Source: Elusimicrobia bacterium RIFOXYA12_FULL_51_18
GTDB taxonomy: Bacteria > Elusimicrobiota > Elusimicrobia > Elusimicrobiales > UBA9959
Assembly: GCA_001800245.1 (NCBI GenBank)
Contig: MGVA01000043.1
Location: 29,098-93,097 of the forward strand
Reading direction: 5' to 3'
Length of the DNA: 64,000 bases
Under the pieces are notes generated by a model. That model was not told the origin of the DNA and made no database searches. It saw only the letters and a program-made list of their open reading frames with translations. Both the position numbers and the translations under genes were made by a program. Shown one piece after another: positions 38,314 through 64,000 of the stretch (positions are counted from its first letter, which is position 1; each line of letters opens with the position of its first letter).

Positions 38314-38625
38314 GTGAAAAAGAAAACATCCAAAATAAAAAAGAATATCAAACTGTTCTTCTCAAGCGAAGAAGGGAAGATGCTGGACTCCGATATCGTG
38401 AAGACCGGTCTGGCGCTGGGGATTCTCGGTGCGGCTATGGTGGATCAGGCTAATGCGGAGAACATACATTCCAACTACTTTACTTCGACCTCCCATGTCA
38501 GCCACCAGAGCCACGGTTCGCACGGTTCGCACGGTTCGCACGGCTCCCACTCGTCCCACGGTTCGCACGGTTCGCACGGCTCGCACGGTTCGCACGGTTC
38601 GCACGGTTCGCACGGGTCTTATTGA
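38314..38625 (+). CDS. hxsA: His-Xaa-Ser repeat peptide, HxsA-like candidate precursor
   Basis: 103 codons from GTG 38314 (GGGGGA 5-6 nt upstream), with an alternative ATG at 38380. The C-terminus is S-HVS-HQS-(HGS)4-HSS-(HGS)7-Y-stop. The N-terminal part contains KTGLALGILGAAMVDQANA, a signal-like segment. It is surrounded by HxsB/HxsD-like genes. Confidence 0.7.
   Translation: MKKKTSKIKKNIKLFFSSEEGKMLDSDIVKTGLALGILGAAMVDQANAENIHSNYFTSTSHVSHQSHGSHGSHGSHGSHSSHGSHGSHGSHGSHGSHGSHGSY
38494..38619 (+). repeat. 14 x 9-bp in-frame tandem repeat (consensus cacggttcg = His-Gly-Ser)
   Basis: Read directly as cat gtc agc / cac cag agc / cac ggt tcg x3 / cac ggc tcc / cac tcg tcc / cac ggt tcg x2 / cac ggc tcg / cac ggt tcg x3 / cac ggg tct. 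Confidence 0.95.
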
Positions 38626-48881: not shown

Positions 48882-48952
48882 ACGATTTTTGGCCCGGAAT
48901 ATTTAAATATCCATAAAAGCCAAACTCCGGACGGATATGCCAACCCCTTATT

Positions 48953-49828: not shown

Positions 49829-50660
49829 ACTTATAAAGAACTCTACGGTCTATCTCGGAGACGAATTCTGTATCCATAAACAGCCTTCGTACGCCGATTT
49901 TGTCGCCGTGAGTAAGATGACGGGGAAAAGCCCCGTCCTTATGAGCACGCTTCTGACCGACCCGGCCTTGGAAAGTTATGCCGGACTACTGTCGGAATGC
50001 GCAAAGAAAGCGCCGGGGACCGAGGTGGTGGTCAACGACATCGGCCTGCTTCGTTTTATAGATATGAACTATCGCGGGAAGTTCAGGATAATTCTTGGCC
50101 GCCTGATGACTTATTTTTTCGACACGAAACACACGCGCCTTCCGGGCTGCACCAGGCCGATACTATGGACCGGTGATGATTCCGATCCGTCCGGACGGAA
50201 GGTGAGCGGTCGGAAGACCGGCTTAAGGCGGGAAGATAAAACGCGGAAAGCATGGGAAACAAAACTTGACGCCACACCCATCGCTTACATCAGGGATTTT
50301 ATCAAACGATATGCCGTGGAAAGGGTGGAGACGGACAGCGATTATATCTTCAGAAAATACGCCTGCAATACCGACATAAAAATATCCTTCTACTATCCGT
50401 TGCGCCTCATGGCCATGACCAGATTCTGTCCGTTCATGGGTGGCATAGCCCCCAGGTGCAGCGCCCCGTGCGGCACCAATCTTTTAAAACTTAAAACCCG
50501 GCAACTTGATTATCAGCTCTTTTCCAAAGGCAATGCCTATTTTGCGAAGAATAAGCTTGTTAAGCATCCCCGGCTTGATCGCGCGATCAAAATGCCTCTT
50601 ACTCCGTGTTCCGGTTTCAAACCGGTGACGAACAATTACACTTGCCCGGGCAGGCCCTGA
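49773..50660 (+). CDS. U32-family protein, UbiV-like small subunit (tandem copy 2)
   Basis: 295 aa with the same 56-nt overlap geometry as copy 1. It is colinear with 48063-48881 except for a ~25-aa insertion (PILWTGDDSDPSGRKVSGRKTGLRRED...). Confidence 0.6.
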   Translation: MDQAILLSPTLISRRGTPELIKNSTVYLGDEFCIHKQPSYADFVAVSKMTGKSPVLMSTLLTDPALESYAGLLSECAKKAPGTEVVVNDIGLLRFIDMNYRGKFRIILGRLMTYFFDTKHTRLPGCTRPILWTGDDSDPSGRKVSGRKTGLRREDKTRKAWETKLDATPIAYIRDFIKRYAVERVETDSDYIFRKYACNTDIKISFYYPLRLMAMTRFCPFMGGIAPRCSAPCGTNLLKLKTRQLDYQLFSKGNAYFAKNKLVKHPRLDRAIKMPLTPCSGFKPVTNNYTCPGRP

Positions 50661-50757: not shown

Positions 50758-51813
50758 TTAAACGCCCTTATTCTCCAGAGTGTGGTACGGCGCCCGGCCG
50801 CAGCGCCGGCAGGCGGGAAGAAACCCGCCCTGCTTCAGCAGCAGTATGCGGAAGGCGGAGTAAGCCGGGCCGTTATACGCGGCCAGCGGCGACGGCAAGC
50901 CCGCGCCGGCGTGTACCGCCAGCGGCTGGCAGGTAAGCAAGCGCCCGTCCGGCGCGAACCAGGTCGCTCGGAACTGGCCAAGACAGAACCCTTTTTTTTT
51001 GAAGGCCGTGCCCGGAGAGTACCAGGCCTTTATTTCAGCCCCCGTGAGCGGCGGGTAGAATTTGACGGCCGGACCGGCTTTCCGCTGTACCGCCGCCACG
51101 CCGGCGGCGAGCTTGGCCGCGTCTATGCCGCGCAACAGGTCGGCTGAGGCTTTAAGCGGCGTGCGCAGGCCTATGCCGGACAGCAGCTTAGCGGTGGCGC
51201 CGGTGTCGGAGGCGGAGACGAATTCCAGGTGGTTGAAGGCGACGCCGTCGGCTCCCAGCGAAGCCAGCGCGCGCCAGGTTTCCGGCAGGCGGGCGTGGTT
51301 GCCCTGGTTCACGGTGCACCAGAGCGTAATGCGGGTACCGGCCGGGCGCCGGGCTTTCATGATTTCAAGGTTGGGGATGGTCGCCGACCAGGTTCCGGCG
51401 CCGGCGATCCGGTCGTGCGCTGCGCGCGGGCCGTGTACCGAAAGCGCTATTTCGTCCGGCCCCGCTGCCGCCAGCTCGGCCGCAGCCTCGGAAGACACTC
51501 GCGCGGCGGTGGTGACCAGAACCGAGTGGCCGGCCGTTTTCAGTTCCCTAACCAAGGCCGGCAGGAAAGGTAGCAATAGCGGCTCTCCGCCGGTGAGATA
51601 AAATTTTTTGCCGCCGGGCCCCAGCGCCCTTATTATTTTCAGCCAGCCTGCCAGCCCCAGTTCGCATCCGCATTCGTCGGACAGGCCGTTTCGCTTTACG
51701 AAACAGAAGGGACAGTTCAGCGCGCACCTGTAGGTGAGGTCTACGGCTATGTAGGAAGGGGACAGTGTTTTAGTTTGTAAAAAAGTCTTTGATGGCATTG
51801 ATGATATATGCAC
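50758..51813 (-). CDS. radical SAM protein with SPASM/twitch-like C-terminus
   Basis: 351 aa with CALNCPFC and TGGEPLLLP. The C-terminal region is GFCLGQFRATWFAPDGRLLTC...LPACRRCGRAPY. The gene is conspicuously GC-rich. Confidence 0.8.
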   Translation of the reverse strand: MHISSMPSKTFLQTKTLSPSYIAVDLTYRCALNCPFCFVKRNGLSDECGCELGLAGWLKIIRALGPGGKKFYLTGGEPLLLPFLPALVRELKTAGHSVLVTTAARVSSEAAAELAAAGPDEIALSVHGPRAAHDRIAGAGTWSATIPNLEIMKARRPAGTRITLWCTVNQGNHARLPETWRALASLGADGVAFNHLEFVSASDTGATAKLLSGIGLRTPLKASADLLRGIDAAKLAAGVAAVQRKAGPAVKFYPPLTGAEIKAWYSPGTAFKKKGFCLGQFRATWFAPDGRLLTCQPLAVHAGAGLPSPLAAYNGPAYSAFRILLLKQGGFLPACRRCGRAPYHTLENKGV

Positions 51814-52765
51814 ACTCGCTTTCGGTCATGGCGGGATATACCGGCAGGTGCAGCGCCTCCCTTAAATACCGGGAAGCCCCGGGGAATTCCGCGTCCCGGC
51901 CTTTGCCGTGCAGCGGGGTGTAAATGCGCTCAAGGGGGATTTTAAGTTTCAGCAGGCGGCGTTTTAGCTCCTCGCGGCGTTTTGTAAGTATGGGGAACTC
52001 CTGGGCCGTTTCTGAAACCGGCGGTATTGTAAGCTCTCCGATGCCGGAGAGACCGCGCCGGTAAAGCCCGTTTATTTTCTTCAGGTCGGAGAACACGGCG
52101 GGTAAGTTCCGGAGCTTGAGCGATAAATAGGAGGCTGTGCGCCCGTCCGGCCTCGTGAATCGTTCCAACCCGCCGCGTATTTTTTTTGTAAGGGCCGGGT
52201 CGTCCCAGGTTATGGCGCCGGCCTTTGCCCACGGAGCCGAGAGGGGTTTGTACGGGGAAAGGGAGAAAATGCCGATCCGTCCGAAGCTCCCGTACTTTTT
52301 TCCTTTGTGGTCCCTGCCGAGTATTTGCGAGGCGTCCTCCACTACCGAGGGAAGGTGTTTTTTGGGGAAACGCTTCACGGGATCCGGGAGGGACGGGTTG
52401 CCGAACATGTGAACGTTTAACAGCGTGTCGAAGGATCCCGCAGCTCTCATCAAAGCTTCTTCCGATATGTTGAGAGTTTTTATGTTTATGTCCAGGAACA
52501 CGGGTTCGGCTTCCGCGTATTTCACCGCTTCAAGCAGCGAAGGATGGGTCACATCCGTTAAGGCCACGCACGCGGGTTTTAAAGCCTTAAGCGCTATCTT
52601 GAGTGCGGCTCCTCCGCCGGCGGTAAGCCTGCAGTATTCACGGCCGGTAAAGGCCGCCAGTTCTCTCTCAAAAATTTCTATCGCGCCGGGTAGGTTATCC
52701 GGCTCCGGCCAGCTTTTTGCAAGAAGCCGGTCTATTCTGTAAGGGTCAAAAATATTTTTCCCCAT
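51770..52765 (-). CDS. DegT/DnrJ/EryC1/StrS-family PLP-dependent aminotransferase
   Basis: 331 aa. FERELAAFTGREYCRLTAGGGAALKIALKAL and FSLSPYKPLSA (candidate PLP Lys) fit the pattern typical of sugar aminotransferases. Confidence 0.7.
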   Translation of the reverse strand: MGKNIFDPYRIDRLLAKSWPEPDNLPGAIEIFERELAAFTGREYCRLTAGGGAALKIALKALKPACVALTDVTHPSLLEAVKYAEAEPVFLDINIKTLNISEEALMRAAGSFDTLLNVHMFGNPSLPDPVKRFPKKHLPSVVEDASQILGRDHKGKKYGSFGRIGIFSLSPYKPLSAPWAKAGAITWDDPALTKKIRGGLERFTRPDGRTASYLSLKLRNLPAVFSDLKKINGLYRRGLSGIGELTIPPVSETAQEFPILTKRREELKRRLLKLKIPLERIYTPLHGKGRDAEFPGASRYLREALHLPVYPAMTESECAYIINAIKDFFTN

Positions 52766-52813: not shown

Positions 52814-54334
52814 TTAAAAACGTCTAAAAAATTTGAAAGCCAGGAGTTCCCTGAAATAGAAAACATAGATCCTGAAATAATCTGAAATAGTGAGGTAATG
52901 AAAAGGGTTTTTCTTGCCTCTTAAAAGCCTTTTAACCATCCCCGTAATGGCTATAACGGGGAATAAGAGGTTGGATGCGGGGACAAACTTGTCCCAGCCC
53001 CGGTCCAGTATCCTGTCCATCAACGGCGTGGGGATAAAGCCGCTCAAAAGTGCCAGATTTCCCATTTTCGCAATCTGCCTGTTGTAGGTGTTCCCGCCTA
53101 TGGCGTACGGCATGTAGGTTTTGCTTTCGTTTAAGGTTTCGACGTCCTTCTCCGTTAATATCCCCATCTTTTCAGCTGTAGCCACTATCTTGGTTTTGGG
53201 GTAGTACCGTAACCAGTATATTGCCGGCAGGTCTGCTCTGTTGCGGGAACAGAACCTCAGTGTTTTTTTTAGGGTCTGGGCGTTTTCTCCGGGAAGGTTC
53301 AGCATTATATTGGAATAGACGAAAATATTGGAGCGGGAAAGTATGGAGAGGGCTTTTTCTATCTGTTCGTTTGAGCCTTTCCTGTTGAGTATGTTTTTCC
53401 GGACAGCTTCGTCCGCTGTTTGGATGCCGATATTCACTGCGCTAGCGCCTGATTTCTCAAGCAGGGCTACAGTGGTTTCATCTATGTTGTCCGGGTGGAC
53501 GCAACAGAAATACGGGAGTTTTATGGTTTTGGCGTAAAGCGTCAGGAATTCATTCAGCCAGCCACGGTCCGAGGTAAAGACCTCGTCATAGAAGGTCACT
53601 CTCTTTATATTGAATTTTTCTTTTGCCAAGGCAAGTTCCGCTATCACATCGGCGGGGCTTCTGCGCCGGAAGAATTTGCCCGGCGGATAGACCGTGTGTA
53701 TCATGGAGTTCCAGCAGTAGCTGCAGGCGTTGGAACAGCCGCGACTCGCGAGTATCATGTAGCTGCTCTCCACCAGTAACCGGCATTCTTTATGAAAAAG
53801 TTCCTTGTCCGGCAAAGGCAGTGAATCCAGATCCGCTATCAATGGCCTTGGCGCGTTCAGAAAAGGAACGCCGTTCTTGTAGCCGCCGATGTTCGGTATC
53901 GCGGATGGATCCTTGCCTTTTTCCAGCGCTTCCGCGAGGTCCGCGAAGGCCTCTTCGCCTTCTCCGATTATTAGATAGTCGGCTATCTTGTCTCTTAAGA
54001 CATATTCGGGGACGGAGGTCGGATGTACCCCGCCAAAAACTATTACAGCCCCTGTCCTTTTTTTTATTTCAGCGGCCATCTCCAGCGTCCATTTGTAATT
54101 GTCCGATATGACCGAAAAAGCCGCTATGGCCGGTTTTTTGAGCGCTATTTTTTTCAGTATGCGATTCTTGAAATTAAAAAAATTATCGTGGAGAAAATTG
54201 CTGTCGTAGAAAAAGTTATGGAAAAGCGCAGGCTCGAAAAAAAGCTCGGTTGTATGGCCCCGGCTTTTTGCGACGGCGGAAAGGTATTCTATGGCCAGAT
54301 TTTCGTAATGGCTGGTTATAAAGGCGATATGCAT
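52814..54334 (-). CDS. B12-binding-domain radical SAM protein
   Basis: 506 aa. The N-terminal region is IAFITSHYENLAIEYLSAVAKSRGH...VIVFGGVHPTSVPE...YLIIGEGEEAF. The cluster motif is ASRGCSNACSYC. Confidence 0.8.
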   Translation of the reverse strand: MHIAFITSHYENLAIEYLSAVAKSRGHTTELFFEPALFHNFFYDSNFLHDNFFNFKNRILKKIALKKPAIAAFSVISDNYKWTLEMAAEIKKRTGAVIVFGGVHPTSVPEYVLRDKIADYLIIGEGEEAFADLAEALEKGKDPSAIPNIGGYKNGVPFLNAPRPLIADLDSLPLPDKELFHKECRLLVESSYMILASRGCSNACSYCWNSMIHTVYPPGKFFRRRSPADVIAELALAKEKFNIKRVTFYDEVFTSDRGWLNEFLTLYAKTIKLPYFCCVHPDNIDETTVALLEKSGASAVNIGIQTADEAVRKNILNRKGSNEQIEKALSILSRSNIFVYSNIMLNLPGENAQTLKKTLRFCSRNRADLPAIYWLRYYPKTKIVATAEKMGILTEKDVETLNESKTYMPYAIGGNTYNRQIAKMGNLALLSGFIPTPLMDRILDRGWDKFVPASNLLFPVIAITGMVKRLLRGKKNPFHYLTISDYFRIYVFYFRELLAFKFFRRF

Positions 54335-54344
54335 GATGGTGTTG

Positions 54345-55382
54345 TTATTTTATTTCCAGCGGGAATTTACCTTTAACGTTCTCACCCGAGGGGATATGCC
54401 TGTTTCTGAAAGCGGGGTCAATGATGAGGCAGTCCTTGTGAGGGACTTTGAATATAGTATGGCTCCACATTTTGTCGAGCGTAGTGGCAAGAGGCCCCTT
54501 AAGCGCGGAGCCGAAAGTCAGCGGAAGATAAGCGCAGGGCTGGATTTCGCCGTAAGGTGAAACATAAAAAGTACTTCTTTTGAATATGCCGCAATCATCC
54601 GGCGCGGGCAGGCCTTTAAAATAGGTTATGCACGGATCCAGATTTTTTAAAAGCTCTTTTTCCTGTTTCGGATTCAGGGTCTCTGCGGCGTGGCACTGGA
54701 AACTGCCGACCGGCCGCGCCGGCATGACCCGCACGGCCATAACGCCCAGGTCCCTTGCCAGTTTTATGATGGCATGGATGTCGCCTTGAGCGTCGGCGCG
54801 CTTAGAGGTCACGTAGGTGGAAATTAGGCATGGAACGGCGGCTTTTACGCAGTTCTTAAGTCCCTGGATAGCGCTTTTAAAACATCCGGCGTTATTCCTC
54901 AGGGCGTCGTGCTCTTTCGGGTCAGGCACGTCTATGCTTACAGCCACGCAGGAAACCCCGGCTGTCTTTAAATCTAAAAGGGTTCCCTCGGTTAAAAGCA
55001 GCCCGTTAGATTCCAGCACCGTCACAAAATGCCTTGAGGCAAAGCGGATGATGTCGAAAATATCTTTTCTTAGCAGGGCTTCGCCGCCGCTTATATTCAG
55101 TCTCGGTACGCCCACGTCGGATATCGCCCCCAATATGGCCAGCCACTGTGCGGTGGAGAGCTCTTCCGCGGTCTCACGTTTGTAAAGTCCGGCCGAACAG
55201 TGGGAGCACCTAAGCTGGCACATGTAGGTCAGACCTATCACGGCGGAGGAAGGCGAATGGAGCCCCGCGGCATTTTTTATCGCGTTGGCAAACACCCGAT
55301 AATATAAGCGCATCCGCGTGACTTTTAGGAATATGCGAAGCACCAGGACAAAGCTTTTTAATTTATCGGCAAATTTATTCAT
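54345..55382 (-). CDS. radical SAM protein with N-terminal amphipathic/hydrophobic helix and twitch/SPASM-like tail
   Basis: 345 aa with CQLRCSHC and SGGEALLRKD. The C-terminal part reads CGIFKRSTFYVSPYGEIQPC. It is paralogous to 55562-56608. Confidence 0.8.
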   Translation of the reverse strand: MNKFADKLKSFVLVLRIFLKVTRMRLYYRVFANAIKNAAGLHSPSSAVIGLTYMCQLRCSHCSAGLYKRETAEELSTAQWLAILGAISDVGVPRLNISGGEALLRKDIFDIIRFASRHFVTVLESNGLLLTEGTLLDLKTAGVSCVAVSIDVPDPKEHDALRNNAGCFKSAIQGLKNCVKAAVPCLISTYVTSKRADAQGDIHAIIKLARDLGVMAVRVMPARPVGSFQCHAAETLNPKQEKELLKNLDPCITYFKGLPAPDDCGIFKRSTFYVSPYGEIQPCAYLPLTFGSALKGPLATTLDKMWSHTIFKVPHKDCLIIDPAFRNRHIPSGENVKGKFPLEIK

Positions 55383-55561: not shown

Positions 55562-56608
55562 GTGAAAACAGTTTTATCGCAGTTCATATTCGGGATCAAG
55601 GTTTTTTTCCGCGGCCTGAGCATTAAAAATACCACGAAGATAGCCTTTTTTATGATCAAAAGGTATTTTCTGGGCAGGCCGGTGCCATTCTCAGTAGTGC
55701 TGGCGGTAACCTATAAATGCCAGTGCGGATGCGTTCATTGTTCGGTCGCTGATTACGCCCGCGAGGCCCAGGAGCTGACGGCGGAAGAAATAAAAAAAAT
55801 AATCGACTTCGTGGATGACTGGGGACCGGTGAAGGTAACTTTTTTCGGCGGAGAACCGCTTATCCGGCCGGAGATAGCGGATTTTGTGGCTTATGCGTCT
55901 TCCAAAGGTATAAGAACCTCCATAGACACAAACGGCCTGTTGGCTGACGAAGACATGATACTGGGGCTTAAGCGCGCCGGTATTGGGAACATAAACGTGA
56001 GCGTTGACAGCCCCGATTTGGACGCGCATGACAGACTCAGGGCGAGCGCAGGCTGCTTTAATTCCGCCGTGGCCGCTTTAAAGCTCTGTGCCAAGCATGG
56101 GGTAGCCTGCCTGGTTTCCACTTATGCCTCCAAAACATCCATAGCCGACAAGTCGCTTGAGCGGATAATAACGCTTGCCCGAGAACTTGGCGCGGACGGG
56201 GTTAAGATACTGTTCCCCATCCTTTCCGGTAAATGGCGTGAGAGTGAAGCTGAGAGGCTTTCCCCGGAAGAGGAAGCATATTTGATCGGACTGATGGACC
56301 CCTCTTATGTTTATGTAGAGGATGCCCTTGAAATGATAACGAAACGCGGCAAAGGCTGTTCTGCTTTGGATCGCAACCTTGTATATATCTCTCCCTACGG
56401 AGATATTCAGCCCTGTCCGGCCATCCCCGTCTCTTTTGGCAACTTACGGAAGAAAGCGCTGGGTGAGATAATCGCCTACATGGATAATCATCCCTTTTTT
56501 GGAAAATGCGGGTCCTGCGCCATGTGTCTTATGAATGATCCGTCCTTCCGTAAGACGTTCTTTTCCCGGAGCAGGGGGAGGCTGCCGGTGGATGTGGAAG
56601 AATTATAA
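55562..56608 (+). CDS. radical SAM protein with N-terminal amphipathic/hydrophobic helix and twitch/SPASM-like tail
   Basis: 348 aa with a GTG start, CQCGCVHC and FGGEPLIRPE. The C-terminal part reads GCSALDRNLVYISPYGDIQPC...CGSCAMC. Confidence 0.8.
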   Translation: MKTVLSQFIFGIKVFFRGLSIKNTTKIAFFMIKRYFLGRPVPFSVVLAVTYKCQCGCVHCSVADYAREAQELTAEEIKKIIDFVDDWGPVKVTFFGGEPLIRPEIADFVAYASSKGIRTSIDTNGLLADEDMILGLKRAGIGNINVSVDSPDLDAHDRLRASAGCFNSAVAALKLCAKHGVACLVSTYASKTSIADKSLERIITLARELGADGVKILFPILSGKWRESEAERLSPEEEAYLIGLMDPSYVYVEDALEMITKRGKGCSALDRNLVYISPYGDIQPCPAIPVSFGNLRKKALGEIIAYMDNHPFFGKCGSCAMCLMNDPSFRKTFFSRSRGRLPVDVEEL

Positions 56609-56655
56609 AACCCTGTCGTTCGCCTAAATATAAAGCCCAGGTTAACCGGTGATTT

Positions 56656-58104
56656 ATGAATGTAAAACTTGACTTGTTATTAGTGGTGGCGCACCCCCCG
56701 GCGACGGCAAAGTTTTTAACATGGTCGTCGGGAGTCACGCATCCTTTAGGGGCCGCATATATAGCGGGCTATGTTCGGGAAAAAGGTTTTACGGTTGAAA
56801 TCCTTGATAATGCGATAGAGGGATTGAGCCTTAATGCTTTTCGTGACTATGTGAGAGCTAGAATGCCGCGGTGTGTGGGGTTCAGCACTTTTACGAATTC
56901 CATTCGGAATTCATTCCTTTTGGCTGAAGCGGTAAAAGATGTCAATGAGAATATTCTTGTGATCATGGGGGGGGCTCATGCCTCCGCGTTGCCGCATGAT
57001 ACGTTAAAGCGGGCATGCGTGGATATAGTGGTAAAAGGCGAGGGAGAAATTACGACGCATGAATTACTTCAGGCCGTCAAAAACGGAACTGGGTTTGAGG
57101 GGATTTATGGGGTTTGGTATAAAAAAGCGGGACATATCGTTGAAAATCCGGATCGCGAATTGATCCCGGATTTGAACATTCTCCCCATGCCCGCGTATGA
57201 CCTTTTGCCAATGAAGAAGTATTATCTGCCGGCCTCGCGGAGGATGGGGAAAGGATATACGGGGTCTGTTATGACGGGCCGGGGATGCCCGTATCATTGT
57301 ACCTTTTGCAGCCGAAGTGTTTTTGGCGCGAAATTGCGGTTGAGGAAGCCGGAAAAAGTGGTTGAAGAAATGATGCTTTTGGCCGGACAGTATCACGTTG
57401 AGGAATTTCTGATCTGGGATGATGTGTTCACTATCGATAAAGAACGCGCTATCGAAATGTGCCGATTGATGCGCAAAAACAGACTCAATATCGTCTGGAG
57501 CTGCAGCAGCCGCGGCGATTGCGCGTCGGATGATCTGTTCCGGGAGCTTTCCCTGGCCGGTTGCCGTGAAATATTGTTGGGCGCTGAGTCCGGGTCTCAA
57601 AAGATACTGGACCATCTGCGGAAGGATATCACAGTGGCGCAGATCGAGGAAGCCGTGCGCTTATGTAAGAAGAACAATATGCTGGCGTTTTGCACGTTTG
57701 TGCTGGGATCATTCGGTGAGACGGAAGAAACGTTGCGGGAAACACTGAAATTTGTAAAACAGCTTGATCCCAATTATGCGATTTTTTGCGTTCTGGCGCC
57801 ATTGCCCGGTTCGAAATTATTTTCAGAGGCTGTTGCGGACGGGAGGGTCGATCTTGCCGCGGTAAACTGGGATCATTACGTGAGTCTGCTGTCCACTGTC
57901 CCGCCTCCGATAAAAACAAGTGCGATGAGTAAAGAGGAAATTGTTCGGTGGCAGAAAAAAATTTTCAGGGAATTTTATTTGCGGCCCGCTTATATTTTCC
58001 GGCATATCCGGAATCTGCGTTCATGGGGACATGTTTGTGAAACGTTGCGCGGGTTCAGCGCCCTGATGGGGCATCAACTGCATCAGAATTTTAAATCTAA
58101 ATAG
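56656..58104 (+). CDS. B12-binding-domain radical SAM protein (class-B type), tandem array member 1
   Basis: 482 aa with GAAYIAGYVREKGF, GGAHASALP, VVKGEGE, LPMPAYDLLP, GRGCPYHCTFC and LGAESGSQ. Confidence 0.85.
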   Translation: MNVKLDLLLVVAHPPATAKFLTWSSGVTHPLGAAYIAGYVREKGFTVEILDNAIEGLSLNAFRDYVRARMPRCVGFSTFTNSIRNSFLLAEAVKDVNENILVIMGGAHASALPHDTLKRACVDIVVKGEGEITTHELLQAVKNGTGFEGIYGVWYKKAGHIVENPDRELIPDLNILPMPAYDLLPMKKYYLPASRRMGKGYTGSVMTGRGCPYHCTFCSRSVFGAKLRLRKPEKVVEEMMLLAGQYHVEEFLIWDDVFTIDKERAIEMCRLMRKNRLNIVWSCSSRGDCASDDLFRELSLAGCREILLGAESGSQKILDHLRKDITVAQIEEAVRLCKKNNMLAFCTFVLGSFGETEETLRETLKFVKQLDPNYAIFCVLAPLPGSKLFSEAVADGRVDLAAVNWDHYVSLLSTVPPPIKTSAMSKEEIVRWQKKIFREFYLRPAYIFRHIRNLRSWGHVCETLRGFSALMGHQLHQNFKSK

Positions 58105-58117
58105 TAGTGAGTCCGTT

Positions 58118-59581
58118 ATGATGGCCGCATATCAAGAACGCCTCGACGTCTTATTTGTCGTCCCTCGAAATCCATCCACATTCGATATCGTTTCCGGCGC
58201 ATATACTGTGACCGCGCCATTGGGCGTTGCATATGTCGCCGGATATCTGAGAGAGAAAAAATATCGCGTCGCGATTATCGATGATAATATTGAAAGGGCG
58301 ACTAAAGAGGGCTTCAAGGAGTATCTGAAAAAGTGTAAGCCGCGATTCGTCGGATTTAGTGTTCTAACGCCTTCGGTCGACAATGCCGTAGCTTTTGCCG
58401 AGATCGTAAAAGACACCGTTCGCGACACGAAAATCTTTGCCGGGGGAGCGCATGCCTCGGCGTTGCCGGAAGACCTGTTAAAACACCCATGTTTTGATGT
58501 GGTGGTTAAGGGCGAGGGAGAGGTGACGGCGCTGGAATTGATCGAATCGCTTGATGCCGGAGAAAGTTTGGAAAATGTCCGCGGGATCGTGTATCGGAAG
58601 GAAGCGCGGTGCATAGAAAATGCGGATCGCCCATTCATCGCCGATCTCGATGCGTTGCCGATGCCTGCTTATGATTTGCTTCCAATGGAGAAATATTTTG
58701 TTTCATCTACAAGGAAGCTTGCGGCCGGGCGCGCCGGGTCAATCATCACGAGCCGCGGTTGTTCTTATCAATGTAGTTTTTGCAGCCAATCGGTTTTTAG
58801 AAGAGAGGTCCGCTATCGAAGCCCGGGCAGCGTTTTAAAAGAAATACGGTATTTAAGCGATATTTACGGCATTTCCGAATTCGTCATCTGGGACGATACG
58901 TTTACAACAAATGAAAGGCATGCCGTGGAGATCAGCAAGGGGGTTAAAGCGATTAAACGGGATCTGGTCTGGAGTTGCTATTCGCGGGTGGAACAGGCTT
59001 CGGATCGAATGTATCAGGCGTTGTATGATGGTGGGTGCCGTGAATTATCATTCGGCGCGGAATCGGGATCGCAGATGATCCTGGATTCGATCTGTAAAAA
59101 TGTAAAAGTGGAAGATATTGAGAAGGCTGTGCAATGCTGTAAGAGAAATGGTTTAAAGTCGTTCTGTTGTTTTGTATTCGGTTTTCCGGGTGAGACTGCG
59201 GAGACGATACAAAAAACAATTCAGTTCGCAATAACCATAGACCCCGATTTTGTTTCTTTTTGCATATTTACGCCGTTGCCCGGATCTAAATTGTTTTCCG
59301 ATGCGGTTCAAAGGGGGCTGATAAATCTCGATCATGTTGAATGGAGCCGGTTCATGTGCCTGATGTCGACATGTCCGCCGCCGGTAAATATGAGCGGGAT
59401 AAGCAGCGCGGATTTGATTTTATCGCAGAAAAAGGCGTTTATGAAGTTCTATTTCCGTCCAAAATATATTTTCCTGAGGCTTTTCCAGCTAAAGACAAAA
59501 GATTCAATATATCAGCTATGGCGAGGATGCCGAACCATACTGAAGTATCTTAATTACAGGGTAACCACGCAAGATGAATAA
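58118..59581 (+). CDS. B12-binding-domain radical SAM protein, tandem array member 2
   Basis: 487 aa, colinear with member 1 (GGAHASALP, VVKGEGE, LPMPAYDLLP, SRGCSYQCSFC, FGAESGSQ). Confidence 0.85.
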   Translation: MMAAYQERLDVLFVVPRNPSTFDIVSGAYTVTAPLGVAYVAGYLREKKYRVAIIDDNIERATKEGFKEYLKKCKPRFVGFSVLTPSVDNAVAFAEIVKDTVRDTKIFAGGAHASALPEDLLKHPCFDVVVKGEGEVTALELIESLDAGESLENVRGIVYRKEARCIENADRPFIADLDALPMPAYDLLPMEKYFVSSTRKLAAGRAGSIITSRGCSYQCSFCSQSVFRREVRYRSPGSVLKEIRYLSDIYGISEFVIWDDTFTTNERHAVEISKGVKAIKRDLVWSCYSRVEQASDRMYQALYDGGCRELSFGAESGSQMILDSICKNVKVEDIEKAVQCCKRNGLKSFCCFVFGFPGETAETIQKTIQFAITIDPDFVSFCIFTPLPGSKLFSDAVQRGLINLDHVEWSRFMCLMSTCPPPVNMSGISSADLILSQKKAFMKFYFRPKYIFLRLFQLKTKDSIYQLWRGCRTILKYLNYRVTTQDE

Positions 59582-61010
59582 AAGCGATATCCTTTTGGTT
59601 TCTCCCGCCCCGCAATCGGAAGTGGGATTGCTTTACAGGCTTTCCGGTATAGTGCATCCTCTTGGTTTAGGATATCTCGCTAGCTATCTTCGCAAAAACG
59701 AATATATCGTGGACCTTATCGATAATTCTGTCGCGCGCTTGAGTGAGAAGCAATTCGGGGAATATTTAGAAATTTCAAAACCGCGGTATGTCGGTTTTAG
59801 TTTTTATACGGGATGTCTTGCCAACGCCCATGATCTGGCGCGGGTTGTAAAGAAGGTGGATAGCCGGATTATTGTTGTTGCGGGAGGGCCTCATGCTTCT
59901 GCGCTTCCCGGAGATGTTTTCCGAAATGATGCCATTGATGTCGTTGTTCGTGGAGAAGGAGAGGAAACATTGTTGTCGCTTCTCATTGCGATGGACTCGA
60001 AGTCCGGCCTTGAGACTGTTGAAGGAATTAGTTATAGACGGGGTTCGGAAATAATGCACAATCGGCCGCGTGATCTGATAAAGGATATTAATGCCTTGCC
60101 GGTTCCGTCGTACGATCTTTTCGACATTGATAAATATTTTTTGGCGCCTTCCAGAAGATTTACGGGCGGAAAGGCGGGCTCGGTCATTACCAGCCGGGGA
60201 TGCCCTCAACGGTGCGCTTTTTGCAGTCGCGCGGTTTTCGGGCGGAGTATCCGATATCGCACCCCGGAAAACGTTGTTAATGAAATTGAAAACCTGGTTG
60301 GGAAGTACGGCTTCACGGAATTTGAAATCAGAGATGATACATTTACTTTGGATGAAGACCGGGCGATCGCCATATGTGATTTGATCAAGGCGCGGAAGAT
60401 CAGGATTTTATGGAACTGCTGCGGCCGGGTAAATCAGATTTCCGACAAATTATTGAGCTCCCTTTACGCCGCCGGATGCCGCGCGGTGTTTATCGGCGCG
60501 GAATTCGGTTCTCAAAAGATGCTGGATTTAATGAAAAAAGATATTACCCTGGAACAAATTGAGACGGCGATTATGCAGTGTAAAAAACACAAGCTATTAT
60601 CGCTGACCAGCTTTATCATAGGCGCCCCCGGTGAAACGGAGGAAACAGTGCGGGAAACGATTTTGTTCGCGAAAAGAATAGATCCGGACTATGTTTCTTT
60701 TTGCGCCTATACCCCGCTGCCTGGGTCCGAACTGTTCGATGAATTTGTTGCGAAAGGACAAATTGACATCGAAAACATGAATTGGGAAGATTGTGTGCGA
60801 TTATTATTGGTGCCGCCGCCGTATCAAATCGGCAATTTTCCACCCAGGGAGCTTGTTAAATGGCAAAAAAAAGCCCTTAGAGAATTTTACCTGCGGCCTC
60901 GATATATTTTAAAACGACTGGCACGGCTCAGAACAATTCAGGGCGCTCTTTCCGCTTTTGCGGGCCTGCATGTCGTGGTCGGGCATCAATTAAAGCGCTT
61001 TAAATTTTAA
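59574..61010 (+). CDS. B12-binding-domain radical SAM protein, tandem array member 3
   Basis: 478 aa with an 8-nt overlap onto member 2. Blocks are GGPHASALP, VVRGEGE, LPVPSYDLF, SRGCPQRCAFC and IGAEFGSQ. Confidence 0.85.
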   Translation: MNKSDILLVSPAPQSEVGLLYRLSGIVHPLGLGYLASYLRKNEYIVDLIDNSVARLSEKQFGEYLEISKPRYVGFSFYTGCLANAHDLARVVKKVDSRIIVVAGGPHASALPGDVFRNDAIDVVVRGEGEETLLSLLIAMDSKSGLETVEGISYRRGSEIMHNRPRDLIKDINALPVPSYDLFDIDKYFLAPSRRFTGGKAGSVITSRGCPQRCAFCSRAVFGRSIRYRTPENVVNEIENLVGKYGFTEFEIRDDTFTLDEDRAIAICDLIKARKIRILWNCCGRVNQISDKLLSSLYAAGCRAVFIGAEFGSQKMLDLMKKDITLEQIETAIMQCKKHKLLSLTSFIIGAPGETEETVRETILFAKRIDPDYVSFCAYTPLPGSELFDEFVAKGQIDIENMNWEDCVRLLLVPPPYQIGNFPPRELVKWQKKALREFYLRPRYILKRLARLRTIQGALSAFAGLHVVVGHQLKRFKF

Positions 61011-61060
61011 ATGATACAATTTGGGGAAAGAAATGATCGGCAGGTTCTAAAAAAATAACA

Positions 61061-62455
61061 ATGAAAATAGTACTGATTAAACCTCATTCTTCGGCTATAA
61101 GTCCTCAAATTGTTCCTCCTTTGGGACTAATGTATTTGTCCGCGGTGCTGAAAAGAGCAGGGTACAAAGACGTGTCTCTTATTCACATGGATGCCGATGA
61201 CTTAAATGAGGCGGAGATAGCGGCTAAAGTTATTGCACTAAACCCTGATCTTGTTGGCCTTAGTTCAATAACATCAGAATCTTATTGTATGTATGCCCTG
61301 GCCAAGAAAATAAAAAATATCCTCAATAATGTTTGCGTTATTGCGGGTGGGCCGCATCCGACCGCGTATGTTGAAGATTGCTTGAAAAATGATGCTATTG
61401 ATATTGTGGTGAAAGGGGAAGGTGAGGAAACTTTATTGGAAATTGTGCGAACCATCGAAAAAAAAGAGCCGCTTGGCATGATCAAGGGGATAAGTTATAA
61501 AGAGAATGGCGGGATCTTGCATAATCCCCCCCGTGAATATGTTGCTGATATCGATCAACTCCCTTATCCGGATTGGGGCGCTGTTAATATCGATGCATAT
61601 AAACGATTTATCCCTCAATCGCCATTTATGTATCAGCGTAAATATATGACCATTTTTACGTCGCGGGGATGTCCGTTTCATTGCACGTATTGTCATAATG
61701 TCATGGGGAAATCATTCCGGGCTCATTCGGTAAATAGGGTTTTTGATGAAGTATCTTATTTGCATAATAAGTACGGTATTCGCCATGTAGCCATCATTGA
61801 CGACATATTCAATTGGGATAGAACCAGATCGTTGGCAATCATGCAAAGAATAGCGGATAGTGAGATGAAACTCGCTATACATTTTGCTAATGGGATAAAA
61901 GGAGACCTTTTAGATGAAGAACAAATAAAAATCTTTGCTAAAGCCGGGCTTTCTTTTACATGTGTGGCTGTCGAAACCGGGAGCATGCGCTTGCAGAAAA
62001 AGATTAAAAAAGGAATCGATTTCCCAAAGATACGAGAAAATATCGCTCTCCTCTCAAAACACAGGATTTTTGTTAATGGCTATTTTATTATAGGGTTTCC
62101 CGGAGAAACTTTTAAAGAAGTGTTGTTAACGATTTGGTTCGCCTGCACTTCAAAACTGCATACGGCCAGTTTTTTTGTCTATCATGCTTACAAAGGGACC
62201 GAGCTTGGGGATGATTTAAGCGGAGAGATCGTGAGCAAGGTGCAGAATTCCGCGAGCAGTTATACTACGTCGAGTGATTTCGTGAACTGTTCCTCATTAT
62301 CAAAAAGTGCCATTGTATTCCTGCGGCAATTTGCGAATATTTGTTTTTATGGTAATCCTGTCCGCGTATTTAGAATTTTGAGAGATTTGCCTGATTATGG
62401 GGCTTTTTATATCTTACTGAAAAAACTTATCCACCGGACAATATTCTTAAAATAA
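61061..62455 (+). CDS. B12-binding-domain radical SAM protein, tandem array member 4 (second subfamily)
   Basis: 464 aa with PPLGLMYLSAVLKRAGY, GGPHPTAY, VVKGEGE, SRGCPFHCTYC and VAVETGS. The gene is AT-richer than the rest of the island. Confidence 0.8.
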   Translation: MKIVLIKPHSSAISPQIVPPLGLMYLSAVLKRAGYKDVSLIHMDADDLNEAEIAAKVIALNPDLVGLSSITSESYCMYALAKKIKNILNNVCVIAGGPHPTAYVEDCLKNDAIDIVVKGEGEETLLEIVRTIEKKEPLGMIKGISYKENGGILHNPPREYVADIDQLPYPDWGAVNIDAYKRFIPQSPFMYQRKYMTIFTSRGCPFHCTYCHNVMGKSFRAHSVNRVFDEVSYLHNKYGIRHVAIIDDIFNWDRTRSLAIMQRIADSEMKLAIHFANGIKGDLLDEEQIKIFAKAGLSFTCVAVETGSMRLQKKIKKGIDFPKIRENIALLSKHRIFVNGYFIIGFPGETFKEVLLTIWFACTSKLHTASFFVYHAYKGTELGDDLSGEIVSKVQNSASSYTTSSDFVNCSSLSKSAIVFLRQFANICFYGNPVRVFRILRDLPDYGAFYILLKKLIHRTIFLK

Positions 62456-62478
62456 CCGTTTCAAGTAAAGAAAAGAAC

Positions 62479-63870
62479 ATGAGAATTTTATTAGTTAAAC
62501 CCCAATCCACAGTTTTTCATAGCATTGCTGTTCCGCCATTAGGGCTTCAATATCTGTCGGCAGTTGTAAAGGCGGCCGGTTATCAAAATGTGAAAATTGT
62601 TCATATGGATGCGCAAAGGATAGATGCTGACGATTGGGAGAATGAGGTACGGGCATTTCACCCGGATATTGTCGGGTTGAGTGTTATTGTGTCGGAGGCT
62701 GTATCGATGGATGCGGTGGCCGTGCGAACAAAAAAAAATGCGCCTCGATGTCTGGTGGTTGCGGGAGGCGCATACCCCTCGTTATTTCCTGAAAAATGTC
62801 TGAAAAACTCCGCCATTGATCTTGTTGTAAGGGGTGAGGGGGAAAAAACATTTCTTGAAATAGTGAAATGCTTTGAACAAGGGCTGTCGTTTGACGAGAT
62901 TAAAGGGGTGGCTTTTCGAGGCAAGGATGCTGTTTGTTATGCCCCACAACGTGAATTTTGTCATCGTCTTGATGATATTCCTCCCCCGGATTATGAAGGA
63001 CTGGATTTGGATTTGTATAACAATTTAATCCCGCAAAGTCCGCTTTTATTTAAACAGAAGCATGTCCGCGTCCTTACATCAAGAGGGTGCCCATATCAGT
63101 GCGGTTTTTGCTTCCCAACCATGGGACGGGTATTCCGCCCGCATTCTGCCGATCGCGTTATTGGGGAAATATTGAGGCTTTGTGAAAGACGGCAGACTCG
63201 CAATGTGGAAATAATAGATGATGTTTTTAATTTCGATCGTGAACGAGCGATGGAGATAATGCGAAAGATAGTCAAAGCTGACCGGGGCTTGAAAATTTAT
63301 TTTCCAAGCGGGGTGAGAGGGGATCTTTTGGATAGAGAAATGATTGATCTGTTTAAAACGGCGGGGGTGGTGTTTATGCCGGTTGGGATTGAAACGGCCA
63401 GTAAGCGAAAGCAGGTGGAAATTGGAAAAAACATGGATCTTGACCGTCTTCAAATAAATATCGCTTATGCGGTTAAAAAACGAATGTTCATGAATGGGTA
63501 TTTTATTTTAGGGCTTCCCGGAGAAACGATCCGCGAGGTGCTGAGGACTGTTTTTTTTGCATGTGAATTGAAACTGCACACAGCAAGTTTTTTTGCTCTG
63601 CATTGTTATGAGGGATCGGAGTTTGCGAAGGTTGCGGATGCCCGGAAAGTCATAACAGCTCAATCCGCTTACAGCCTGTTTTCCGCCCCGATCCATTTTA
63701 TTAACGCTTCTTCTCTTAATAAAGGTGTTATTGTTTTTCTGCGGCAGCTTGCAAACGTTATGTTCTATTGTAATCCATTTCGGCTGCTTAGAATCATAAA
63801 AGATTTGCCGGAAAAGCGGTGCTTGGTTTTTTTAGCGAAGCAATTTCTCAAACGGGTCGTTTCTTTTTGA
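62479..63870 (+). CDS. B12-binding-domain radical SAM protein, tandem array member 5 (second subfamily)
   Basis: 463 aa, colinear with member 4 (PPLGLQYLSAVVKAAGY, GGAYPSLFP, VVRGEGE, SRGCPYQCGFC, VGIETAS). Confidence 0.8.
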   Translation: MRILLVKPQSTVFHSIAVPPLGLQYLSAVVKAAGYQNVKIVHMDAQRIDADDWENEVRAFHPDIVGLSVIVSEAVSMDAVAVRTKKNAPRCLVVAGGAYPSLFPEKCLKNSAIDLVVRGEGEKTFLEIVKCFEQGLSFDEIKGVAFRGKDAVCYAPQREFCHRLDDIPPPDYEGLDLDLYNNLIPQSPLLFKQKHVRVLTSRGCPYQCGFCFPTMGRVFRPHSADRVIGEILRLCERRQTRNVEIIDDVFNFDRERAMEIMRKIVKADRGLKIYFPSGVRGDLLDREMIDLFKTAGVVFMPVGIETASKRKQVEIGKNMDLDRLQINIAYAVKKRMFMNGYFILGLPGETIREVLRTVFFACELKLHTASFFALHCYEGSEFAKVADARKVITAQSAYSLFSAPIHFINASSLNKGVIVFLRQLANVMFYCNPFRLLRIIKDLPEKRCLVFLAKQFLKRVVSF

Positions 63871-63877
63871 TCGCAAG

Positions 63878-64000
63878 ATGAATAAAAGTATCCTCGAATG
63901 TCCGATTTGTAAATCGGATGATTGCCGGAAAAACCATCTTTGCCGGGATATGGTCATCTATCGATGTGGTTCCTGTGGGATGATGTTCCAGAACCCGTCT
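63878..64000 (+). CDS. 5' end of a gene encoding an N-terminal Cys4 zinc-ribbon (start typical of some class I SAM methyltransferases); runs off the window
   Basis: Own translation from ATG 63878 gives MNKSILECPICKSDDCRKNHLCRDMVIYRCGSCGMMFQNPS, a CPxC...CxxC ribbon. Only 41 codons are visible, so the function is a guess. Confidence 0.35.
   Translation, partial: MNKSILECPICKSDDCRKNHLCRDMVIYRCGSCGMMFQNPS

What the first reader, a model, noticed from the sequence alone, without database searches (positions are those of the whole stretch)
56656..63870. Five B12-binding-domain radical SAM genes in an uninterrupted head-to-tail array (seven in the island)
Seen: five consecutive plus-strand ORFs of 463-487 aa have spacers of -8 to 50 nt. 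All carry the (G)GxH/Y...P, VV(K/R)GEGE and SRGCxxxCx(F/Y)C blocks. Members 1-3 form one subfamily (LPMPAYDLLP, (L/F/I)GAE(S/F)GSQ). Members 4-5 form another (PPLGL.YLSAV.K.AGY, V(A/G)(V/I)ETGS/TAS). Two more B12-domain-like rSAMs lie at 45110-46876 and 52814-54334. Known: class B rSAM enzymes mostly methylate unactivated carbons. Examples are the peptide C-methyltransferases of proteusin pathways, the hopanoid methylases HpnP/HpnR, and Fom3/GenK-type enzymes. Some relatives catalyse ring formation (BchE, archaeal GDGT ring synthases). Inference: the array supports iterative or site-specific C-methylation (or cyclisation) of the island product, with each paralogue possibly addressing a different position. 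A lipid substrate cannot be excluded. If the enzymes are cobalamin-dependent, the organism must synthesise or import B12.
Basis: partly seen in the sequence, partly recalled or inferred. Interest (0 to 1): 0.65.

Follow-up and report, generated by a model that had tools for sequence, protein, structure and literature searches.

The report
Cobalamin-type radical SAM gene array
Five old, divergent copies of a cobalamin-domain radical SAM enzyme lie in one probable operon inside a giant radical-enzyme island built around a His-X-Ser repeat peptide in an uncultivated groundwater bacterium; neither the product nor the enzymes' target is known.

Summary
Five co-directional ORFs (56656-63870) each carry a B12-binding domain, a radical SAM core and an intact CX3CX2C motif. 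They share only 26-46% amino-acid identity, so this is not an assembly artefact. Each has a 1:1 orthologue (60-75%) in a second metagenomic contig.

No copy reaches the cut-off of any curated family. The best profiles are HpnJ and BchE, which are not methylases, at less than half their cut-offs. The count is eight, not seven: a degenerate copy at 45110-46876 and an extra copy just past the window end.

The array is the distal arm of a conserved module: two SPASM radical SAMs, B6, B1 and further copies, a methyltransferase, a membrane protein and a flavoprotein. This module sits in an island of more than 50 kb with at least 21 radical SAM genes. The island is organised around an HxsA4 His-Xaa-Ser repeat peptide (38314-38622) and two HxsB maturases, so it is an expanded relative of the four-gene HXS antiphage system.

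B12-type radical SAM genes accompany HxsA4 in about one third of related loci. They are present in all three GSY-type loci that could be viewed far enough.

Site-specific tailoring of the peptide or of a glycan attached to it is the best reading. It is unproven, and methylation in particular is not supported by similarity. A glycan-only or a lipid substrate remains possible.

The parts
56656..58104 (+). B1, a class-B-type radical SAM (482 aa). Its clade is present in all related modules examined.
   Evidence: PF02310 80.8 bits and PF04055 78.5 bits. AlphaFold model pLDDT 89, TM 0.63-0.71 to TsrM, AprD4, MgmA, OxsB, CysS and TokK. Orthologues of 48-75% in L001, L003, L088, L089 and L092.
58118..59581 (+). 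B2, a class-B-type radical SAM (487 aa)
   Evidence: 61% orthologue in L001. Identical to P0020, which identifies the source contig.
59574..61010 (+). B3, a class-B-type radical SAM (478 aa). Its start overlaps the end of B2 by 8 nt.
   Evidence: 70% orthologue in L001.
61061..62455 (+). B4, a class-B-type radical SAM of the second subfamily (464 aa)
   Evidence: 65% orthologue in L001. Sister to arrays of 4-5 B4-type paralogues in L179 and L180.
62479..63870 (+). B5, a class-B-type radical SAM of the second subfamily (463 aa)
   Evidence: 60% orthologue in L001.
63878..64000 (+). Start of a Zn-ribbon plus class I SAM methyltransferase (288 aa, runs off the window). It is followed by a 506-aa polytopic membrane protein, an eighth B12 radical SAM (-) and a flavin amine-oxidase-like protein (-).
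   Evidence: The pair of methyltransferase and membrane protein recurs in L001 and L179. In L089 a polytopic Wzy_C protein lies two genes after the methyltransferase.
55562..56608 (+). AhbD/NirJ-like radical SAM/SPASM protein, first gene of the co-directional run
   Evidence: PF04055 and PF13186. Orthologues of 47-62% directly upstream of the B12 genes in L001, L003, L088, L089, L091 and L179.
54345..55382 (-). Second AhbD/NirJ-like radical SAM, divergent from 55562
   Evidence: Orthologues of 47-56% in the same loci.
52814..54334 (-). B6, a class-B-type radical SAM (506 aa). Its clade is present in all related modules.
   Evidence: PF02310 52 bits and PF04055 85 bits..
45110..46876 (-). X7, a radical SAM (588 aa) with a degenerate remnant of the B12 domain
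   Evidence: Only PF04055 is found. hhalign to the B1-B3 profile starts in the second half of the B12 domain. 75% orthologue in L109.
38314..38622 (+). HxsA4 His-Xaa-Ser repeat peptide (103 aa from a GTG start). It has a conserved KKNIK..F.SEEGK leader, a hydrophobic segment, 14 HxS repeats and the C-terminus GSY.
   Evidence: NF038313 68.6 bits, above the cut-off of 55. 52% homologue heads L003. Family alignment.
34640..36070 (+). HxsB maturase, copy 2
   Evidence: TIGR03978 457 bits, above the cut-off of 370.
21709..23193 (+). HxsB maturase, copy 1
   Evidence: TIGR03978 476 bits, above the cut-off of 370.
21285..21767 (+). HxsD-like protein
   Evidence: TIGR03976 38 bits, below the cut-off of 50. 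The gene in the same position in L093, L094 and L174 hits Pfam HxsD.
23567..24490 (+). HxsC-like radical SAM. It is followed by a 385-aa membrane protein and two more HxsC4-like radical SAMs, up to 27776.
   Evidence: TIGR03977 171 bits, below the cut-off of 268. The same four-gene string occurs in L093, L116 and L153.
37218..38300 (+). 360-aa protein with an N-terminal anchor. It is the conserved gene immediately upstream of HxsA4.
   Evidence: No Pfam or NCBIfam hit. A gene of 325-359 aa occupies the same slot in L093, L094 and L174, and tblastn matches occur in many loci.
38659..42794 (.). GT28-like glycosyltransferase (+), radical SAM 39804-40772 (+), DUF2334/polysaccharide-deacetylase-like (-) and radical SAM 41466-42794 (-). 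This block always follows GSY-type HxsA4.
   Evidence: Synteny in L003, L095-L109 and L180.
47222..50660 (+). Two tandem pairs, each a U32-family (UbiU/TrhP-like) protein plus a partner with no Pfam hit
   Evidence: A third pair lies at 15152-17130(-).
50758..52765 (-). Radical SAM (351 aa) and a DegT/PseC-like sugar aminotransferase
   Evidence: Conserved in L095-L105.

Best explanation
The five genes are a real, probably co-transcribed block of old, individually conserved paralogues of cobalamin-domain (class B type) radical SAM enzymes. Together with two AhbD/NirJ-like SPASM radical SAMs, B6, a SAM methyltransferase, a polytopic membrane protein, a flavoprotein and an eighth copy, they form a conserved tailoring module. 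In this groundwater Elusimicrobia genome the module is attached to a greatly expanded His-Xaa-Ser (HxsA4-type) maturation island. My inference is that each paralogue carries out a different radical step on the product derived from the exported HxS-repeat peptide. That step could be on the peptide itself or on a sugar attached to it. It could be C-methylation, or equally a cyclisation or rearrangement of the BchE/HpnJ kind. Shown here: the domain architecture, the fold, the orthology and the synteny. Inferred: the substrate, the chemistry and the use of cobalamin.
For: Architecture and fold. The paralogues are old and have 1:1 orthologues. The run 55562 to about 66300 is co-directional with spacers of 50 nt or less and one 8-nt overlap. 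The core SPASM-SPASM-B6-B1 is conserved in six to seven loci. HxsA4 and two HxsB pass the curated cut-offs. In L003 the whole string from HxsA4 through GT28, radical SAMs, a flavoprotein and two SPASM genes to B6 and B1 fits in 11 kb. In L180 four B4-type genes lie about 0.6 kb from an HxsD-HxsB-HxsD-u310-HxsA4(GSY) unit. Nine of 27 distinct HxsA4 loci of at least 10 kb carry a B12-type radical SAM within 10 kb. All three GSY-type loci that could be viewed far enough (window, L003, L180) have arrays of the B1, B4 or B6 clades. HxsA4 is the only conserved small ORF near these modules.
Against: The link is by neighbourhood only. Minimal HxsA4 systems have no B12 gene (L174-L178, L093). The B12 module in L089 is bounded by unrelated genes on one side and O-antigen-type genes on the other, with no HxS peptide within 10 kb, and L091/L092 are similar. 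HxsA4 lies 18 kb from B1 in the window. No background rate of B12 radical SAM genes in these genomes was measured, so the one-third figure has no proper control. No similarity to a proven peptide-modifying class B enzyme reaches a cut-off.
Confidence: 0.5

Rival explanations
1. The B12 module is an independent pathway that modifies a glycan or sugar (a nucleotide sugar or a lipid-linked glycan of the cell envelope). It merely lies beside the HxsA4 system and does not act on the peptide product.
For: Glycan genes flank or interleave the module in every locus. L089 has GT2, Wzy_C, GT4 and a WecA-like gene. L091/L092 have PMT, a polysaccharide deacetylase, two GDSL genes and GT2. The P0125 place has NTP_transferase and GT2. 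The window has GT28, a deacetylase-like gene and a PseC/DegT-like aminotransferase. One of the closest solved structures, AprD4, acts on an aminoglycoside sugar.
Against: Glycosyltransferases are common neighbours in such genomes. No hit to a known sugar-modifying class B family reaches a cut-off. Three GSY-type HxsA4 loci have the arrays directly attached. The membrane protein after the methyltransferase shows no detectable relation to the PMT of L092.
Confidence: 0.25
2. The paralogues modify membrane lipid tails by methylation, ring formation or desaturation, like the archaeal Grs, Gmm, Cgm and Ted enzymes or the proposed ladderane enzymes.
For: B6 and B8 score best against the 'lipid biosynthesis B12-binding/radical SAM' model TIGR04072. 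A phytoene-desaturase-like flavoprotein recurs in the module. The nearest relatives in species genomes (30-38%) are dominated by archaea of lineages I would expect to make tetraether lipids (own knowledge; their lipids were not checked). Homologous B12 radical SAMs are known to methylate, cyclise and desaturate tetraether lipids (10.1101/2025.10.20.683597; PMC11214058).
Against: All these scores are a third or less of the cut-offs. No Tes, Mss, fatty-acid or isoprenoid gene was found in the window. B1-B8 have no hydrophobic segment. The flavoprotein's best match is an uncharacterised family, PRK07208, not CrtI or HpnE.
Confidence: 0.12
3. The module builds or modifies a tetrapyrrole-like cofactor. 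This would resemble BchE chemistry and the radical SAM suites found beside the nitrogenase paralogues of groundwater Elusimicrobia.
For: BchE is the best or second-best profile for all five. The two SPASM proteins score best against AhbD and NirJ2. A TP_methylase-like gene lies at 36156. Meheust et al. described radical SAM suites, some with B12 domains, beside NifHDK paralogues in this phylum (10.1101/765248).
Against: No NifH/D/K-like or tetrapyrrole-pathway gene is in the window. The BchE and AhbD scores are below half of their cut-offs. The TP_methylase-like protein scores 25 bits against CbiL, whose cut-off is 163.
Confidence: 0.05
4. The array is an assembly artefact or a recent tandem amplification with no division of labour.
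For: None found.
Against: Paralogues share 26-46% amino-acid identity and almost no DNA identity. The array is recovered in independent assemblies. Each copy has a 1:1 orthologue in L001.
Confidence: 0.01

Closest known systems
HXS antiphage system (HxsD-HxsB-HxsC-HxsA; Li et al., Nat Commun 2026, PMC13128918)
   Same: It has a His-Xaa-Ser repeat precursor, an HxsB SPASM maturase (two copies here pass TIGR03978), and HxsC-like and HxsD-like partners. The precursor has an N-terminal export or anchor segment.
   Different: [quoted passage not shown] Here HxsA4 is a 103-aa peptide with 14 repeats and no such domain. It sits among at least 21 radical SAM genes, eight of them B12-type, plus sugar enzymes and U32 pairs, in Elusimicrobia. 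B12 radical SAMs are not part of the described system. Antiphage activity was not tested.
Sets of several class B radical SAM methyltransferases in RiPP pathways (bottromycin BotRMT1-3, polytheonamide PoyB/PoyC; own knowledge)
   Same: Several cobalamin-domain radical SAM paralogues sit in one peptide cluster, each thought to address its own positions.
   Different: The RiPP C-methyltransferase model TIGR03975 is not met (102-129 bits, cut-off 282). There are five to eight copies rather than two or three. The core peptide is a glycine- and serine-rich HxS repeat with few obvious unactivated carbon targets.
HpnJ (hopanoid cyclitol ether formation) and BchE (anaerobic Mg-protoporphyrin cyclase)
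   Same: These are the best-scoring curated profiles, covering nearly the full length, with the same domain order.
   Different: Scores are 135-224 bits against cut-offs of 481-578. No hopanoid or chlorophyll gene is nearby. These enzymes are not methylases, which warns against assuming methylation.
Archaeal tetraether-lipid B12 radical SAMs (GrsA/B, Gmm, Cgm, Ted)
   Same: They are homologous B12 radical SAM paralogues doing different reactions (ring, methyl, double bond) on one scaffold, often clustered with an AhbD-like SPASM enzyme (Gms/Hbs).
   Different: No direct sequence comparison was possible. The SPASM genes here are 345-348 aa and lack the extension described for Gms/Hbs. No lipid-core genes are nearby.
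Solved class B enzymes TsrM, TokK, OxsB, CysS and MgmA, and the cobalamin-free AprD4
   Same: The predicted fold of B1 superposes over the full length (TM 0.63-0.71).
   Different: Sequence identity is 16-21%. The substrates of these enzymes span a free amino acid, carbapenem and pantetheinyl intermediates, a nucleoside, an aminoglycoside sugar and a protein, so the fold does not indicate the substrate. AprD4 shows that the domain does not always bind cobalamin.

Membership tests
Class B (cobalamin-domain) radical SAM enzymes | N-terminal Rossmann-type B12-binding domain (PF02310) | tested here: met
   B1-B5 score 71-86 bits and B6 52 bits against a cut-off of 32. X7 has no hit, only a partial profile alignment.
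Class B (cobalamin-domain) radical SAM enzymes | Radical SAM core with CX3CX2C | tested here: met
   PF04055 59-81 bits for B1-B5. The motif is intact in all eight copies.
Class B (cobalamin-domain) radical SAM enzymes | Full-length fold like solved members | tested here: met
   B1 model pLDDT 89.4 and pTM 0.90. Foldseek E 1e-19 to 1e-25 and TM 0.63-0.71 to TsrM, MgmA, OxsB, CysS and TokK.
Class B (cobalamin-domain) radical SAM enzymes | Actual binding and use of cobalamin | not testable with these tools
   Binding is base-off without a His ligand, and no sequence motif for it is known (PMC13331322). AprD4, a close structural match, lacks cobalamin.
HpnJ (TIGR03471) | Score at or above the curated cut-off of 577.6 bits | tested here: not met
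   B1 224, B2 220, B3 192, B4 152 and B5 135 bits.
BchE (TIGR02026) | Score at or above the curated cut-off of 481 bits | tested here: not met
   140-220 bits.
RiPP maturation radical SAM C-methyltransferase (TIGR03975) | Score at or above the curated cut-off of 281.85 bits | tested here: not met
   102-129 bits.
Lipid biosynthesis B12-binding/radical SAM protein (TIGR04072) | Score at or above the curated cut-off of 360 bits | tested here: not met
   B1-B5 score 115-142, B6 117 and B8 73 bits.
Archaeal lipid B12 radical SAMs (Grs, Gmm, Cgm, Ted) | Phylogenetic placement within those clades | not tested
   No reference sequences could be obtained with the tools. No NCBIfam model for them appeared among the hits.
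HXS (His-Xaa-Ser) system | HxS-repeat precursor HxsA | tested here: met
   NF038313 (HxsA4) 68.6 bits against a cut-off of 55, with 14 HxS repeats.
HXS (His-Xaa-Ser) system | HxsB SPASM maturase | tested here: met
   TIGR03978 476 and 457 bits against a cut-off of 370.
HXS (His-Xaa-Ser) system | HxsC and HxsD at curated scores | tested here: not met
   Best HxsC score is 171 bits (cut-off 268). Best HxsC4 score is 131 (cut-off 500). HxsD scores 38 (cut-off 50). These are divergent homologues in the expected positions.
HXS (His-Xaa-Ser) system | Four-gene D-B-C-A architecture and a peptidoglycan-binding domain on HxsA | tested here: not met
   The island is greatly expanded. HxsA4 is 103 aa with no domain hit except a weak collagen-like repeat match. 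PMC13128918 describes the canonical form.
HXS (His-Xaa-Ser) system | Antiphage activity | not testable with these tools
   PADLOC gives only generic radical SAM matches.

The most novel reading that the evidence does not exclude
GSY-type HxsA4 islands make a new class of hyper-modified product. An exported His-Gly-Ser repeat peptide would be rebuilt, repeat by repeat, by some two dozen radical SAM enzymes. These include five to eight cobalamin-type paralogues, each installing a different C-C or C-methyl modification, together with oxygen-independent U32 hydroxylases and glycosylation. The result would be a cofactor-like or metal- or DNA-binding periplasmic polymer unlike any known RiPP.
Probability: 0.25. 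Interest if true: 0.85.

Novelty: new variant of a known kind. Interest (0 to 1): 0.6.

Why it matters
The chemistry of the canonical HXS system is unsolved: a +8 Da change on one SHRSS motif. This island is an expanded version with a simple 14-fold repeat core and many more enzymes. That gives a tractable route to His/Ser-directed radical chemistry and a set of eight uncharacterised class B enzymes with clear orthologue groups. If the target is instead a glycan or a lipid, it would reveal radical tailoring of the cell envelope in uncultivated anaerobic phyla. In either case the array defines separate, conserved enzyme clades (B1, B2, B3, B4/B5, B6, B8) that no curated family covers.

Tried and rejected
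- Close relatives in one-genome-per-species contigs: none with B1 alone. With an alignment only 28-38% relatives were found, across many bacterial and archaeal phyla. This said nothing about function.
- Search for a conserved small precursor ORF next to the B12 modules: only HxsA4 was found; all other matches were antisense shadows of conserved genes.
- GT-C (PMT-like) assignment for the membrane protein after the methyltransferase: no Pfam or NCBIfam hit, and hhalign probability 0.4% against the PMT of L092. Dropped.
- Cobalamin riboswitch or any Rfam family in the window: none.
- Promoter and terminator scans across 52-64 kb: counts did not exceed shuffled controls, so the operon inference rests on spacing alone.
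- PADLOC defence models: only generic viperin and PDC-M51A radical SAM similarity.
- Nitrogenase-paralogue context reported for groundwater Elusimicrobia: no NifHDK-like gene in the window.
- Sequence motifs that would prove cobalamin binding: none exist according to PMC13331322.
- Hydropathy of B1-B8 as a test for lipid enzymes: no hydrophobic segment except one weak internal one in B5. This is not decisive.

Full report
**Observation.** The five ORFs exist exactly as described: 56656-58104, 58118-59581, 59574-61010, 61061-62455 and 62479-63870, all on the + strand.
- Each carries PF02310 (B12-binding, 71-86 bits) and PF04055 (radical SAM, 59-81 bits), and each keeps an intact CX3CX2C motif.
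- The spacers are 13, -8, 50 and 23 nt.
- B1-B3 share 43-46% amino-acid identity, B4-B5 share 44%, and the two groups share 26-34%. At DNA level only short 70-75% patches match.
- The same array is found on independent assemblies of Rifle aquifer samples (ENA scaffold_38 of 188.9 kb, JGI 3300002146).
- NCBI names the organism Elusimicrobia bacterium RIFOXYA12_FULL_51_18.
- An assembly artefact is therefore excluded.

**Count of copies.** The protein at 52814-54334 (B6) is a true B12-domain radical SAM. The protein at 45110-46876 (X7) has no Pfam B12 hit. Profile comparison aligns only the second half of that domain, with GEGE changed to NWGE, so it is a degenerate relative. Fetching the source contig showed what lies beyond the window:
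- a Zn-ribbon SAM methyltransferase starting at 63878;
- a 506-aa polytopic membrane protein;
- an eighth B12 radical SAM (B8, minus strand);
- a flavin amine-oxidase-like protein;
- one more radical SAM.

From 55562 to about 66300, eight genes run in one direction with spacers of 50 nt or less. Consensus promoter and terminator scans were no better than shuffled sequence, so the operon is inferred from spacing only.

**Family assignment.** No paralogue reaches the curated cut-off of any NCBIfam model.

| Model | Score of B1-B5 (bits) | Cut-off (bits) |
|---|---|---|
| HpnJ | 135-224 | 578 |
| BchE | 140-220 | 481 |
| RiPP C-methyltransferase TIGR03975 | 102-129 | 282 |
| Lipid model TIGR04072 | 115-142 | 360 |

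- An AlphaFold model of B1 (pLDDT 89.4) superposes over its full length on TsrM, AprD4, MgmA, OxsB, CysS and TokK (TM 0.63-0.71, 16-21% identity). A profile search of PDB sequences gave the same list.
- The proteins therefore have the class B architecture but belong to no described family.
- Their best profile matches are enzymes that do not methylate.
- Cobalamin binding cannot be read from sequence.

**The paralogues are old and individually conserved.** A 197.6-kb metagenomic contig (L001) carries B1 (75%), B2 (61%), B3 (70%), a methyltransferase, a membrane protein, B4 (65%), B5 (60%), a flavoprotein and another B12 gene. A neighbour-joining tree pairs each window paralogue with its L001 counterpart.
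- The B1 and B6 clades occur in all six to seven related loci.
- B8 pairs with a gene in L089.
- Two other contigs (L179, L180) carry their own radiation of four to five B4-type paralogues, again with 1:1 orthologues between them.
- Close relatives are rare. About 39 clusters share at least 41% identity with B1, and about 55 share at least 40% with B4, among 5.8 billion clusters. The named ones are mostly from Omnitrophota and Elusimicrobia MAGs, and the rest are unnamed.
- One genome per GTDB species holds nothing closer than 38%.

**The conserved module.** In L001, L003, L088, L089, L091/L092 and L179 the order is two AhbD/NirJ-like radical SAM/SPASM genes, then B6, then B1 or B4-type genes. 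A methyltransferase, often followed by a large membrane protein, and a flavoprotein usually accompany them. In the window this core is 52814-56608 plus the array, with B6 and one SPASM gene inverted.

**The island.** The window holds 21 radical SAM genes between 17013 and 63870.
- Two of them are HxsB maturases above the curated cut-off: 21709-23193 at 476 bits and 34640-36070 at 457 bits, cut-off 370.
- A six-frame scan found one His-Xaa-Ser repeat ORF. From its GTG start at 38314 it encodes 103 aa that pass the HxsA4 model (68.6 bits, cut-off 55).
- HxsC-like and HxsD-like genes are present but score below their cut-offs.
- The canonical HXS system is a four-gene antiphage system of Pseudomonadota. 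There HxsB and HxsC mature a periplasmic HxsA carrying a +8 Da change (PMC13128918). HxsA4 and HxsC4 appear in no paper of the searched library.
- The left flank of the island (LpxA/C/D, OmpH, BamA, PhoH) is the same as in L093 and the P0125 place, where the island is far smaller.

**Is the array tied to the peptide? Evidence for.**
- In L003 an HxsA4 homologue (52% identity, also ending GSY) heads a compact 11-kb string: GT28, radical SAM, DUF2334, radical SAM, flavoprotein, SPASM, SPASM, B6, B1.
- In L180 four B4-type genes lie about 0.6 kb from an HxsD-HxsB-HxsD-u310-HxsA4(GSY) unit.
- A metagenome scan with an HxsA4 alignment returned 79 loci. Nine of 27 distinct architectures of at least 10 kb have a B12-type radical SAM within 10 kb.
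- HxsA4 C-termini fall into GGWC, GSY and GQW types. Every GSY locus with enough downstream sequence has the GT28 block, and no other type has it.
- All three GSY loci that could be viewed beyond 10 kb (window, L003, L180) have arrays of the B1, B4 or B6 clades.

**Evidence against.**
- Minimal HxsA4 systems in Omnitrophota (L174-L178) and L093 have no B12 gene.
- The module in L089 is bounded by unrelated genes on one side and O-antigen-type genes on the other. L091/L092 interleave PMT, deacetylase, GDSL and GT2 genes. No HxS ORF lies within 10 kb in either case.
- This absence is weak evidence, because B1 plus or minus 10 kb in the window itself would also miss HxsA4.
- I did not measure a background rate of B12 genes, so the one-third figure has no proper control.

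**Mechanism.** I commit to the array being a set of specialised tailoring enzymes for the HxsA4-derived product, either the peptide or a glycan on it, with confidence 0.5. Whether they methylate is open.
- A glycan-only pathway (0.25) is supported by the constant company of sugar genes.
- A lipid role (0.12) is supported by weak model affinities and the flavoprotein. However, no lipid-core genes are present and B1-B8 lack hydrophobic segments.
- A tetrapyrrole role (0.05) has only sub-threshold BchE and AhbD similarity. No NifHDK paralogue of the kind described for this phylum is present.

**Cobalamin supply.** No Rfam family, including the cobalamin riboswitch, matches the window. The TP_methylase-like gene at 36156 scores 25 bits against CbiL, whose cut-off is 163.

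**Verdict.** The array is a new, uncharacterised variant: a multi-paralogue class B radical SAM module attached to an expanded HxsA4 system.

Noticed in passing
15152-17130(-), 47222-48881(+), 48953-50660(+); L180:1-1036 and 12654-14458: There are three pairs, each a U32-family (UbiU/TrhP-like) protein plus a partner with no Pfam hit. In L180 such a pair beside the B4-type array is followed by chorismate mutase and shikimate-pathway genes. This would fit prephenate-dependent, oxygen-independent hydroxylation (own knowledge).
   Followed up: partly
30403-34579: A SufS-like cysteine desulfurase, the YgeY hydrolase (547 bits, cut-off 321) and the knotted carbamoyltransferase YgeW (674 bits, cut-off 453) sit inside the island. 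They are conserved next to HxsB2 and HxsA4 in L095-L109. Their role there is unexplained.
   Followed up: partly
36156-36887: A TP_methylase-fold protein (PF00590, 49.7 bits) lies between HxsB2 and HxsA4, in the slot that holds a second HxsD in related loci. It is not a recognisable corrin methylase (CbiL 25 bits, cut-off 163).
   Followed up: no
38314-38622 and loci L093-L180: HxsA4 peptides fall into three C-terminal types: GGWC, GSY and GQW. Only the GSY type is followed by the block of GT28, radical SAM and DUF2334.
   Followed up: yes
L001:3756-8546: A 1596-aa protein fuses a B6-type B12 radical SAM to PQQ_2 beta-propeller repeats.
   Followed up: no
24487-25644: A 385-aa membrane protein with four hydrophobic segments shows faint type IV prepilin peptidase (A24) similarity at 17 bits. 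It is conserved within the HxsC-like gene string and is a candidate leader protease.
   Followed up: no
1-12652: The left flank holds LpxA, LpxC, LpxD, OmpH, BamA and PIN/PhoH. The same flank borders much smaller HxsA4 islands in L093 and the P0125 place, so the island has grown at a fixed chromosomal site.
   Followed up: partly
56000-64000: GC content falls from about 0.50-0.59 across the central part of the island (40-58 kb) to 0.42-0.44 over B4-B5. GC skew is strongly positive along the array. The cause was not examined.
   Followed up: no
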